64,000 bases of DNA from Anolis carolinensis. Taxonomy: Eukaryota. Within the stretch, counting starts at the first letter, position 1, and each line of letters starts with the position of its first letter. The position numbers and the translations under genes were made by a program. Under the pieces are notes generated by a model that saw nothing but the letters and a program-made list of their open reading frames with translations, was not told where the DNA came from and searched no databases. The stretch covers positions 224,727,971-224,791,970 of the forward strand of contig NC_085843.1 in assembly GCF_035594765.1 (NCBI RefSeq), in the 5' to 3' direction. Positions 37,552 through 47,129 of the stretch are shown here, piece by piece.

Positions 37552-39140
37552 CAGTGGGGGGGGGGGGGGGTATTTAGTCAGATACCAATTGTACAAGTTC
37601 TCCCACTTAAAAAGATGAGAGAAGCCTGTAATTGACATCATAGGTAGACATCAATTATGAGAGACAACATGAGAAAACACATCCAGAAAATCACACTGAT
37701 TTTTCACGAATTTATTTGCAAATTATGGTGGAAAATAAGTATCTGGTCCATAACCAAAGTTAATCTCAATACTTTGTTATATATCCTTTATTGGCAATGA
37801 CAGAGGTCAAACATTTTCTGTAAGTCCTCACAAGGTTGGCACACACTGTTGCTGGTATGTTGGCCCATTCCTCCATGCAGATCTTCTGAAGAGCAGTGAT
37901 GTTTTGGGGCTGTCACTGGGCAACATGGGCTTTCAACTCCCTCCAAAGGTTTTCTATAGGGTTGAGGTCTAGAGACTGGCTAGGCCACTCCAGGACCTTG
38001 AAATGCTTCTTACAAAGCCACTCCATTGCCCTGGTGTTGTGCCTGGGGTCATTGTCATGCTGAAAGACCCAGCCACGTTTCATTTTCTGTGACCTTGCTG
38101 ATGGAGGGAGGTTTGCACTCCAAATCTCACGATACATGGCCCCATTCATTCTTTCATGTATATGGATCAGTCACCCTGGTCTCTTTGCAGAGAAACAGCC
38201 CCAAAGCATGATGTTGCCACCCCCATGCTTCACAGTGCTCTTTGGATGCAACTCAGCATTCTTTCTCCTCCAAACACGACGAGTTGTGTTTCTGCCAAAC
38301 AGTTCTACTTTGCTTTCATCTGACCATATGACATTCTCCCAATTTTCTTCTGAATCATCCAAATGCTCTCTATCAAACTTCAGTCGGCGCCAGACATATA
38401 CTGGCTTAAGCAGGGGGACACACCTGGCTCTGCGGGATCTGGGTCCCTGGCGGCATAGTAGTGTGTTACTGATGGTAGCCTTTATTACGTTGGTCCCAGC
38501 TCTCTGCAGGTCATTCACTAAGTCCCCCCATATGGTTCTGGGATTTTTGCTCACCATTCTTGTGATCATTTTGACCCCATGGGGTGAGATCTTGCGTGGA
38601 GCCCCAGATCGAGGGAGATTATCAGTGGTCTTGTATCTCTTCCATTTTCTAATTATTGCTCCCACAGTGGATTTCTTCAAACCAAGCTGCTTGCCTATTG
38701 CAGATTCAGTCTTCCCAGTCTGGTACAGGGCTACCATTTTGTTTCTGGTGTCCTTCGACAGCTCTTTGGTCATCACCATAGTGGAGTTTGGAGTGTGACT
38801 GCTTGAGGTTGTGGACAGGTGTCTTTCATACTGATAACAAATAGGTGCCATTACTACAGGTAATGAGTGGAGGACAGAGGAGCCTCTTAAAGAAGAAGTC
38901 ACAGGTCTGTGAGACCCAGAAATCTTGCTTGTTTGTAGGTGACCAAATACTTATTTTCCACCATAATTTGCAAATAAATTCATGAAAAATCAGACAATGT
39001 GAATTTCTGGATGTGTTTTCTCATGTTGTCTCTCATAGTTGAGATCTACCTATGATGTCAATTACAGGACTCTCTCATCTTTTTAAATGGGAGAACTTGT
39101 ACAATTGGTATCTGACTAAATATCCCCCCCCCCCCCACTG
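37552..39140 (-). mobile_element. Tc1 (DD34E, IR/DR type) DNA transposon, near full length
   Basis: ~200-bp TIRs (37552-37750, 38941-39140) starting CAGTG, TA on both flanks, inner direct repeat GGTGGAAAATAAGTAT(C/T)TGGTC, transposase inside. Confidence 0.97.
37766..38779 (-). pseudogene. Tc1 transposase, disrupted (frameshift/stop near 38171, stop at 37913, small deletions)
   Basis: [14 protein letters not shown] (paired-like HTH), [53 protein letters not shown], ends ANKGYITKY*. Confidence 0.95.
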
Positions 39141-45018: not shown

Positions 45019-45803
45019 GGTTGAGAAGTCTGCTGTAGCTGCTGGAGAAGAGGCCTGAACATCTCCAATCAGCTCTTCTGTTGCTGGCTTTGGGACTCCT
45101 TGTGAGCAGACTGCAGCCCCAGGCCCTTTAAAGTTGGGTGTGACTCAGGACTTCCAAGGGGGAGTGTAGCTATAAAGCTGAGTCCATAAGGCCTGGGTGG
45201 ACTTCAATTTTAATCTGTTACATGTATTTGTAGAATATTATCTCTGGGTGGATACTGGTCACTCTGGGACTGTTACAACAGCTGGTGTTGAGAAGGACTA
45301 GGTAGCAGTGAGAGGGCTACCAAGAACTATCTAGTTGACTACAAAGCAGTCCCCTGGAGCTGCTTTTAGGGGGCTGCTGGACTAATTGGATGTCTATCCC
45401 TACCCAACGGTCAAGAAATGGTTGCACTTTGTCCTCTGCCCCAAAGCACTTTACAGCTATGCTATGGTACTTTAGTTCAATTTGGCCCCTCCAAAAACCT
45501 GGTGGTTCATTTTATTTTATTTCATTTTATTTTTATTCACTTTATGTTTTTAATGGGCTTTTATGGTTAATGTAATTTACTGTTTGCATAATGTCGATTT
45601 TACTGTGTTTTATTCATTGTAATATGTTTTTAATTGTTGTACTTGTTTACTGTTTTCGGGCCTCTGTCCCATGTTAGCAGCCCCGAGTCCCTGCAAGGGG
45701 ATGGTGGGGGGATAGAAAAATAAAGTTACTTACTTACTTACTAATTGGCCTGATTGACTGGGAATACACCCATTGACTGTGTGTTAAGTGTTGTTATATT
45801 AAT

Positions 45804-46922
45804 TGTTATGGTTGAGCCTTATGGCTCTGATACTGGGAGACGTGGTCGTAAGACTCCTCGGGAGTCAGATACTCTCGAGGAGCGAGAAAGGAAGCGGCTG
45901 CGGGATATCTTTGCAGAACCATCTGACGAGGATTCCTTTGAGGGTTTTACTGAGAGAATGGAGGAAGAGATGGTTGGCTCAGAGGAGGATGACATGGAAT
46001 GGACTCGTGTGAGGGAGGATTTGGGTGCCACTGGCAATGATAGTATGGAAGGCGATTGGGGACCTTCAGGATTAGACCCGTGGACAAGCTGGAGGGATGG
46101 GACGGGATCCACAGCTGGGGATGCTGTGGGGCGTAGTCAAAGGTGTTTCAGTTCTGATGAGGAAAGTGATGAGGAAACGCCTGGAATTAGGGTAACAGCT
46201 GATAGTGATGAGGAGCTGTAAACTGGCATAAAATGGGGTTTGGAAGCAATGGCTAATTGCGTTGGGCAAGGTAATCTGGACGAACGCTTGGGCTCTGTGT
46301 GGGAAATTCCTGAAGACGGGTGTGATTCGTTTGCTGACTACGTAAGTTACCAAGGACACTGGGCATAGACGGCGGGAGGAACTGTGTGGGCTTTTGTTGT
46401 GCAACCTGTGCTTAATCTTAATAGCTTGGACCTCCGTCGTCTTCTTGACGGACGCCATCTGTTTATTCTGGACTGACTGACTGACTGACTACGGCCTCGG
46501 ACTCTCCTTCCTGTGATTATCGTTGGACCTGGTGAACTACAAACGTCTGTACCTGCCTTACGACCTTCGGACCGGATTGGAACTTCGCTAACCGCTTCTG
46601 CCCTTGAATGCTGCGTTTGTATCTGGAAATTGCTTGCTGTGTGGAGGAGTAACCTCTTAGTTACTCAAACATAGCTTTTGTATTCTTTTGAACCTTTTGT
46701 TCACCAGCTTTTGTTTGTTTTAGTTCCGGGCTGAAGTAAGCTTTTTTGGTTTAACCCGGATTAAACTCCGGTTTAATCCGGTTTATCTTTTGAACGTTTT
46801 CCTTGTGTCTTTTTACTTTTAAGGCCAAGGTTTGCCTAGCCCTTGTCTTTTACGGGCATTTTTGGTTCTGTAACTCCAATAAACTTTGTTATATCTTATC
46901 TTGTGGCATTCTGTCCTTGACA
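45804..46922 (+). mobile_element. solo LTR (1119 bp, probably gypsy-type, CpG-retaining so probably young)
   Basis: TGTT...GACA ends. Perfect 5-bp TSD TTAAT (45799-45803, 46923-46927). CATAAAA TATA-like at 46227-46233, AATAAA at 46878-46883. Confidence 0.93.
45808..46221 (+). CDS. putative LTR(U3)-encoded 137-aa acidic protein with basic N-terminal patch and DIF..SDEDSFEGF motif
   Basis: ATG at LTR base 5, uninterrupted frame, stop just upstream of the TATA-like box. The track start at 45754 lies outside the LTR and is not used. Expression not shown. Confidence 0.6.
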   Translation: MVEPYGSDTGRRGRKTPRESDTLEERERKRLRDIFAEPSDEDSFEGFTERMEEEMVGSEEDDMEWTRVREDLGATGNDSMEGDWGPSGLDPWTSWRDGTGSTAGDAVGRSQRCFSSDEESDEETPGIRVTADSDEEL

Positions 46923-47129
46923 TTAATCTTATAATTTGTCTTTCAGGTTTTTTCTTTTTTGCTCTTGATAGTTTGTTTGTTCCCTATTGTTGTTTTTAAT
47001 TCAATGTGTCTGGAAACTAGGGCAGCAATAGAAGTTGTGCGGGCAGAAGGAGGTATAGTGATGGCAGGGGAACGTGTCCTCATAGAGGAAGGTGAGGAAA
47101 TTGTATAGGATGGAGAGAAAGGATGCACA

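What the first reader, a model, noticed from the sequence alone, without database searches (positions are those of the whole stretch)
45808..46221. Solo-LTR ORF encodes an apparent mimic of the LEDGF-IBD / TFIIS-N-domain interacting motif (DIFAEPSDEDSFEGF)
Seen: the intact 137-aa ORF reads RKRLRDIFAEPSDEDSFEGFTE (motif nt 45904-45948). It is preceded by basic patches (RRGRKTPR, ERERKRLR, possible NLS) and followed by CK2-type acidic serines (SEEDD, SSDEESDEE, DSDEEL). Established: LEDGF/p75 IBD partners (MLL1, CDCA7L/JPO2, POGZ, IWS1, ASK) use a helix plus acidic linker plus FxGF motif enhanced by CK2 phosphorylation. The same motif class binds TND domains of transcription elongation factors, and lentiviral integrase uses the IBD to target integration. 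From memory (must be verified) the CDCA7L N-terminus reads ADIFNAPSDDEEFVGF, with the same spacing as here. Inference: the retroelement recruits LEDGF/HRP2 or elongation factors through a stand-alone adaptor peptide.
Basis: partly seen in the sequence, partly recalled or inferred. Interest (0 to 1): 0.85.

Follow-up and report, generated by a model that had tools for sequence, protein, structure and literature searches.

The report
Lizard retrotransposon integrase with LEDGF-ligand mimic
This is the tail end of the integrase gene of a young lizard retrotransposon, left behind in a solo LTR; it carries a conserved short motif that likely binds the host chromatin tether LEDGF, which HIV also uses, and would steer insertions into active genes.

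Summary
The ORF and motif are real, but the ORF is not a stand-alone gene. In full-length copies (a Tf1/sushi-type Ty3/gypsy family) one open Pol frame runs through the integrase SH3 domain and the PPT into the 3' LTR and ends with these 137 residues. The ORF lies in U3, upstream of the inferred transcription start at 46259.

The motif aligns without gaps to the JPO2 ligand in PDB 6EMO (10/20 identical, E=0.79). FxGF is intact in 57 of 59 distinct copies, and the motif is under purifying selection between three subfamilies. A second clade, mostly from Podarcis, carries one or two such motifs after a degenerate chromodomain. A profile built only from element motifs finds the MLL1 ligand as one of two PDB hits (E=3.3).

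Against: an active sister family keeps the helix and acidic linker but lacks FxGF, and insertion bias is untested.

Verdict: an integrase tail that probably mimics a LEDGF/HRP2 ligand (about 65%) and may target insertion (about 50%). Six literature searches found no report of this.

The parts
45799..45803 (+). left target-site duplication (TTAAT)
   Evidence: sequence
45804..46922 (+). solo LTR (1119 bp, TG...CA) of a young Ty3/gypsy family ('family A', subfamily A1)
   Evidence: 40 of 40 scored hits at 96-100%, 3658 candidates; 16 of 30 A1 loci are solo with a 5-bp TSD, and LTR pairs of 4 fetched elements differ at 1-3 of about 1155 bases
45808..46221 (+). 137-codon frame: the C-terminal tail of Pol/integrase encoded in U3; orphaned in this solo LTR
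   Evidence: (1214-aa frame in L033 ends with it), (PR-RT-RH-IN-SH3 domains; P0003, P0004)
45838..45861 (+). basic patch RRGRKTPR (possible NLS, inferred); RRGRK is kept in sister families B and B'
   Evidence: sequence
45874..45912 (+). predicted helix, residues 23-35, ending in [IL]F: the putative TIM anchor helix
   Evidence: helix 122-133 of the 236-aa model, its most confident block (pLDDT about 69) in a poor single-sequence model (mean 44); pN 0-0.03 over residues 13-28
45913..45936 (+). 8-residue acidic linker with a CK2-type S/T-D-E-[DE] site (S39; Thr in subfamily A3)
   Evidence: PMC9987994 gives a linker of 8-16 residues
45937..45948 (+). FxGF (F44-E-G-F47)
   Evidence: intact in 57 of 59 distinct copies; absent from sister families B (0 of 30) and B'
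46075..46095 (+). DPWTSWR: a W-x-x-W segment also kept in families B and B'; function unexplained
   Evidence: (pN 0-0.02 over residues 93-112)
46227..46233 (+). TATA-like CATAAAA, 32 nt upstream of the inferred start
   Evidence: role inferred
46259..46269 (+). 11-nt self-priming sequence complementary to the element's PBS; inferred 5' end of the transcript (start of R)
   Evidence: 13 of 13 parsed 5'-LTR junctions; changes on both sides keep the 11-nt pairing in family B' (8 of 8)
46878..46883 (+). AATAAA polyadenylation signal
   Evidence: role inferred
46923..46927 (+). right target-site duplication (TTAAT)

Best explanation
The ORF is the C-terminal tail of the integrase of a young, chromodomain-less Ty3/gypsy retrotransposon, read through the PPT into U3 of the 3' LTR, and its helix-acidic-FxGF segment likely binds the TND/IBD of host LEDGF/p75 or HRP2, which would tether the integration complex to H3K36-methylated transcribed chromatin. 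Shown: the Pol read-through, the position in U3, the missing chromodomain, purifying selection, and the same kind of motif in a second clade. Inferred: the transcript start; binding to LEDGF/HRP2 (about 65%); phosphorylation of S39 by CK2; use for insertion targeting (about 50% overall); and that the motif replaces the chromodomain as the targeting device. The copy in this window is an orphaned U3 remnant and is probably not expressed from its own promoter.
For: (1) L033 has one 1214-aa stop-free frame with protease, RT, RNase H, integrase and SH3_Tf2-1 domains, then a linker of about 30 aa and the 137-aa tail; no chromodomain is found. UniRef P0003 and P0004 agree. (2) The tail sits where relatives carry a chromodomain: 67 of 127 parsed tails matched a rough chromodomain regex, and 26 of 153 proteins were not parsed. 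(3) The best natural PDB match of the 29-mer is the JPO2 M1 ligand of LEDGF in 6EMO, ungapped, 10/20 identical. (4) A 7-row profile of element motifs returns 2 of 177,635 PDB sequences at E<=10; one is MLL1 in 3U88, aligned over its helix-linker-FxGF. (5) Codons 29-48, one copy per subfamily: pS 0.71/0.39/0.54 against pN 0.04/0.05/0.10; Fisher p 7.5e-7, 1.3e-3, 3.7e-4 (the three comparisons are not independent). (6) A well-supported clade (100/99) of Podarcis elements plus P0017 and P0028 carries 1-2 F-x8/9-FxGF motifs just after chromodomains that lack the first and third cage aromatics; these motifs lie upstream of the PPT, a different position from family A's. (7) The host has PSIP1 with a near-identical IBD (22/24 in the first IBD exon) and an HDGFL2-like locus. 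(8) PMC9987994 says FxGF matters specifically for LEDGF and HRP2.
Against: Both PDB matches are below significance: E=0.79, among 5 de novo proteins of similar score, and E=3.3, ranked behind an unrelated HGPRT. The profile missed 6EMO and the other ligand fusions listed, and one Podarcis motif alone found only CylK. Sister family B', also chromodomain-less and with long open Pol frames, has the helix and acidic linker but no FxGF in 4 of 4 tails read in frame. Family B lacks FxGF and the aromatic anchor in 30 of 30 LTRs. Family C has only acidic-x-GF. So FxGF is dispensable in this lineage. Selection covers the whole tail: residues 13-28 and 93-112 are as constrained as the motif. One Podarcis copy has lost a GF (P0185). 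The conservation counts come from best-scoring copies and are biased. Insertion bias was not tested.
Confidence: 0.5

Rival explanations
1. The tail is selected as a disordered NLS-plus-acidic-phosphosite region with other motifs (W-x-x-W, acidic-W), and the FxGF likeness is incidental.
For: The basic patch, helix, acidic Ser cluster and W-x-x-W are shared by families A, B and B', while FxGF is not. FxGF arises in 0.9% of shuffles. The PDB E-values are not significant.
Against: All four anchor positions (F, F, G, F) are invariant across the 7 aligned motifs from two clades whose integrases are only about 44-48% identical (rows were chosen for having the motif). The motif is duplicated in tandem in the second clade (shuffle p 6e-4 for P0017 and 7e-3 for P0187; 0.02 and 0.08 for the single-motif tails). 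It survives in a Ser/Thr-linker variant with the same spacing (P0090, P0197, P0198). Two different LEDGF ligands were retrieved from the PDB.
Confidence: 0.25
2. The motif is a real TIM but serves something other than site choice, such as stabilising or retaining integrase on chromatin, stimulating integration, or engaging another TND protein (TFIIS, IWS1, ELOA, MED26, PPP1R10).
For: Family B' has an FxGF-less helix plus acidic linker, the form that many TIMs take (PMC9987994). This suggests a general TND contact to which FxGF is an add-on.
Against: The tail occupies the place of the chromodomain, and C-terminal integrase motifs in Ty1 and Ty5 are targeting domains (PMC7459421). FxGF points to the H3K36me readers.
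Confidence: 0.17
3. One reading: the LTR encodes a stand-alone 137-aa adaptor translated from its own ATG, for example in read-through transcripts entering solo LTRs.
For: The ATG has G at -3 and +4 and is kept in subfamilies A1-A3 and in family C. There are many solo copies, and NCBI gene models fuse upstream sequence to the tail (P0009), so incidental translation is possible.
Against: The frame is continuous with Pol and lies upstream of the inferred promoter. The ATG is within the LTR's terminal bases and is Val in families B and B'. Pol read-through explains the selection without a separate gene.
Confidence: 0.08

Closest known systems
Host TIM/IBM ligands of the LEDGF/HRP2 IBD (JPO2/CDCA7L M1, MLL1, IWS1, POGZ; Drosophila JIL-1)
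   Same: Helix, 8-residue acidic linker with a CK2-type Ser, then FxGF; same spacing as JPO2 M1; the element profile aligns to MLL1.
   Different: Here it is carried by an active selfish element's integrase, not a host gene, and binding is unmeasured. POGZ is transposase-derived but domesticated (recalled; 6EMP is listed).
Lentiviral integrase with LEDGF/p75
   Same: The same predicted host tether and outcome, gene-body integration (PMC9987994 passage).
   Different: HIV integrase binds the IBD through its folded core and N-terminal domains (recalled). This element would use a host-like linear motif in a disordered tail.
Integrase C-terminal targeting motifs: Ty5 TD-Sir4, Ty1 TD1-AC40, MLV integrase-BET
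   Same: A short motif in the integrase tail, next to basic NLS-like patches, that tethers to a host chromatin factor (PMC7459421 passages).
   Different: Different partner and motif; encoded inside the LTR; vertebrate Ty3/gypsy.
Plant CRM chromoviruses with the CR motif (CHDCR)
   Same: Loss of the canonical chromodomain linked to the gain of an unrelated targeting module at a different position (PMC6317226 passage). Its extension into the 3' LTR is recalled.
   Different: No sequence relation was tested. CRM elements target centromeres; this motif predicts active gene bodies.
Tf1/sushi group (V-clade) chromoviruses
   Same: Gypsy domain order, SH3_Tf2-1, self-priming PBS; groups with chromodomain-bearing squamate elements.
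   Different: No chromodomain; Pol runs 137 codons into U3.

Membership tests
Ty3/gypsy, Tf1/sushi group | gag plus pol in PR-RT-RH-IN order, with LTRs and a TSD | tested here: met
Ty3/gypsy, Tf1/sushi group | self-priming PBS complementary to the LTR rather than a tRNA | tested here: met
   11-nt complement in 13 of 13 junctions; compensatory changes in family B', 8 of 8. tRNA complementarity was not searched separately.
Chromovirus (strict sense) | chromodomain after the integrase SH3 domain | tested here: not met
   No Pfam Chromo hit in the 1214-aa Pol; only about 30 aa between SH3 and the LTR. It groups with chromodomain-bearing elements at 90/89 support, so loss is inferred.
TIM / LEDGF IBD-binding motif | obligate anchor helix with hydrophobic residues | tested here: inconclusive
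   Helix predicted at residues 23-34 in a low-confidence model; [IL]F conserved.
TIM / LEDGF IBD-binding motif | acidic linker of 8-16 residues with a CK2-type S/T | tested here: met
   8 residues; S/T-D-E-[DE] in all three subfamilies. Phosphorylation itself was not tested.
TIM / LEDGF IBD-binding motif | FxGF (optional in TIMs; typical of LEDGF/HRP2 ligands) | tested here: met
   57 of 59 distinct family A copies; absent in sister families.
TIM / LEDGF IBD-binding motif | physical binding to a TND | not testable with these tools
   Needs a binding assay; see Tried and rejected for the one prediction job.
Integrase targeting domain | insertion sites biased towards the tether's chromatin | not testable with these tools
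Stand-alone LTR-encoded gene (sag- or nef-like) | own transcript and reading frame separate from Pol | tested here: not met
   In frame with Pol and upstream of the inferred start.

The most novel reading that the evidence does not exclude
Squamate Tf1/sushi retrotransposons have, possibly twice independently, swapped a heterochromatin-reading chromodomain for a host-mimic TIM in the integrase tail (once upstream of the PPT, once inside U3). They would converge on the LEDGF/HRP2 tether of lentiviruses by the host ligands' own binding mode. One lizard genome holds the natural series: intact chromodomain (family C), FxGF-less TIM (family B') and full TIM (family A).
Probability: 0.4. Interest if true: 0.82.

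Novelty: new variant of a known kind. Interest (0 to 1): 0.62.

Why it matters
Host tethers are known for only a few integrases, and I know of none for a vertebrate Ty3/gypsy element (own knowledge). A canonical LEDGF-ligand mimic in one would be a second, independent route to the tether that lentiviruses use, and a case of a mobile element copying the TIM itself. The TND review cites only lentiviral integrase under viral mimicry. The idea is cheap to test: a peptide binding assay, and an intersection of the many young insertions with gene annotation, with sister families lacking FxGF or keeping a chromodomain as controls in the same genome. It would also show U3 acting as coding space where targeting motifs evolve.

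Tried and rejected
Complex prediction: the residue 21-55 peptide against the lizard IBD, supplied as the two stop-free halves of a processed PSIP1 pseudogene. It gave 'no answer' (score 0.19, mark 0.34, controls not folded) and is no evidence either way.

RNA: no RNA holder was listed on record. Four runs guessed to be RNA, contigs only, covered the whole element and showed no start sites; the joints listed do not link R/U5 to the tail. This is uninformative.

Other searches and tests: Pfam on the ORF gave only a chance PAS_9 hit. The ESM Atlas gave no usable hit. Three look-ups of earlier scan findings returned nothing. Whether family A and the Podarcis-type clade form one clade is unresolved (polytomy; AU p=0.43), so one or two origins both remain open. 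The first 68-row tree was only the quick tree.

Flawed scripts: the cage-residue counts came from a mis-anchored regex and are not used; cage statements rest on the printed sequences. The P0186 row was mis-cut and is dropped. The flank-GC comparison parsed only 5 family B loci (p=0.50) and is no proxy for gene bodies.

Family B internal region: pattern searches failed twice; looser patterns found the related family B'. No internal region of family B proper was found.

Rejected readings: a host gene or exon (no host-gene ORF stood out among window ORFs of 110 aa or more, by eye only), and an ERV-type accessory gene.

Full report
Observation. The 137-aa ORF at 45808-46221 and the motif at 45904-45948 are as described. 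They lie in a 1119-bp solo LTR (45804-46922, TG...CA) with a 5-bp TSD. The closest named proteins are from Anolis carolinensis, so the host is inferred to be an anole. The family is large and young: 40 of 40 scored hits at 96-100% among 3658 candidates, and the LTR pairs of four fetched elements differ at 1-3 of about 1155 bases.

What the ORF is. The first homologue search returned a 192-aa protein with an integrase SH3 domain fused to the motif. Full-length elements explain this. In L033 one 1214-aa stop-free frame holds protease, RT, RNase H, integrase and SH3_Tf2-1 domains, crosses the PPT and ends with the 137 residues. L031 and L034 have the same layout with a frameshift in pol. After the 5' LTR the PBS is complementary to 11 nt at LTR position 455-458 in 13 of 13 parsed junctions. 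A sister family has changes on both sides that keep the 11-nt pairing in 8 of 8 elements (these were picked by the PBS pattern, while the LTR side was free). Self-priming marks the Tf1/sushi group (PMC6317226, passages); that the priming bases are the transcript's 5' end is recalled from Tf1. With a TATA-like box 32 nt upstream and AATAAA at 46878, the start is inferred at 46259. The ORF is therefore wholly in U3: translated from the 3' LTR of genomic RNA as the integrase tail, and not transcribed by the promoter of a 5' or solo LTR.

Is the motif a TIM? PMC9987994 (part 1 of 6 and passages) defines a TIM as a helix, an 8-16 residue acidic linker often phosphorylated by CK2, and an optional FxGF that matters for LEDGF and HRP2. 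The tail has a predicted helix at residues 23-34 (weak model), an 8-residue linker with S-D-E-D, and FEGF. A 29-mer search of the PDB gave 6 hits at E<=10: five de novo proteins and the JPO2 M1 ligand in 6EMO, ungapped, 10/20 identical, E=0.79. After removing 10 duplicate hits from overlapping loci, 57 of 59 distinct copies of three subfamilies keep FxGF. One further frameshifted copy, L019, was not counted but keeps it. These are best-scoring copies. Between subfamilies the whole tail is under purifying selection (pS 0.29-0.41, pN 0.08-0.14), as are codons 29-48 (pS 0.39-0.71, pN 0.04-0.10; Fisher p<=1.3e-3). Two other segments are equally constrained.

Recurrence elsewhere. Of 153 stored proteins, 127 tails could be parsed; 67 matched a rough chromodomain regex and 6 had FxGF: three family A, two of another clade, one in fused host sequence. 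That other clade (Podarcis muralis by name, plus unnamed P0017 and P0028; 100/99 support) carries one or two F-x8/9-FxGF motifs directly after the chromodomain and before the PPT. It includes a Ser/Thr-linker variant with the same spacing. Its chromodomains lack the first and third aromatic cage residues, whereas family C of the own genome has all three and only an acidic-x-GF in its LTR-encoded tail. A profile of 7 element motifs returned 2 PDB sequences: an HGPRT and MLL1 from the LEDGF complex 3U88, aligned over its ligand motif (E=3.3). Only some ten to twenty of 177,635 sequences hold such ligands (my estimate), so two different ligands surfacing in two searches is unlikely by chance, though neither E-value is significant and a third search found none. 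The host receptor is present: PSIP1 IBD exons and an HDGFL2-like locus.

Against. Family B', the chromodomain-less sister with long open Pol frames, keeps the basic patch, the helix ending in an aromatic residue and the acidic Ser linker, but has no FxGF. This holds in 4 of 4 in-frame tails among 9 fetched regions; two more were frameshifted, and three showed no parsed tail. Family B LTRs lack FxGF in 30 of 30. FxGF is thus not needed for success in this lineage; it is either an add-on in family A or was lost. Whether family A and the Podarcis clade share one origin is unresolved; the different position relative to the PPT favours convergence (inference). Insertion preference could not be tested.

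Mechanism. Shown: the integrase is made with a 137-aa U3-encoded tail in place of a chromodomain, and the tail is selected as protein. Inferred: the helix and FxGF dock in the two IBD pockets, the phosphorylated linker meets the basic patch, and LEDGF/HRP2 carry the integration complex to H3K36-methylated chromatin. I put binding at about 0.65 and targeting at about 0.5.

Known kinds and novelty. It works like Ty5 TD, Ty1 TD1 and the MLV BET-binding tail (PMC7459421, passages) and parallels the chromodomain-for-CR-motif swap of CRM elements (PMC6317226, passages). The predicted partner is that of lentiviruses. I also read passages of PMC7835958, PMC6877644 and 10.1101/2021.07.27.453949. Tesina 2015 and Sharma 2018 were seen only as reference entries, and no supplements were read. 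Searches for this combination (listings only) and for lizard chromoviruses showed no report of a TIM in a retrotransposon integrase. The library lacks most subscription papers and Repbase records. Verdict: a new variant of a known kind, interest 0.62.

Noticed in passing
L069-L098 (family C); a solo-type copy in the window at about 2064-2318, minus strand: A chromodomain-bearing gypsy family with many open frames of about 1256 aa also reads Pol into the 3' LTR. Its tail has an acidic-x-GF half motif and ends in an RRSxR basic motif that resembles the nucleosome-binding core of HMGN proteins (recalled, untested).
   Followed up: partly
window 45988-46095; L151, L153-L155; P0017, P0186: Acidic-Trp motifs (residues about 61-68) and a W-x-x-W segment (residues 90-96) are conserved between families A, B and B'; acidic-Trp also occurs in the Podarcis tails. 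Possible second linear motifs (kinesin-light-chain or LIR-like, recalled); unexplained.
   Followed up: no
G000:C4:80.495-80.527 Mb (L004-L006, L011, L012, L028, L031, L032): A cluster of near-identical family A elements in both orientations, some in tandem sharing one LTR (PPT before and PBS after the same LTR).
   Followed up: partly
L035 (G000:C2:143718346-143718648): Processed pseudogene of PSIP1/LEDGF with one stop inside the IBD.
   Followed up: partly
P0024 (Rhineura), P0041 (Vipera), P0017, P0028: Pol read-through across a PPT-like stretch into acidic, basic-ended tails appears across squamate elements, suggesting a clade-wide trait (inferred from protein sequence only).
   Followed up: partly
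L033:9070-9900: Host exons (spectrin-repeat-like, by eye) lie within 2 kb of a full-length family A element on the opposite strand; a single anecdote, not evidence of targeting.
   Followed up: no
window 38064-38950, minus strand: Tc1/mariner-like transposase fragment, by eye.
   Followed up: no
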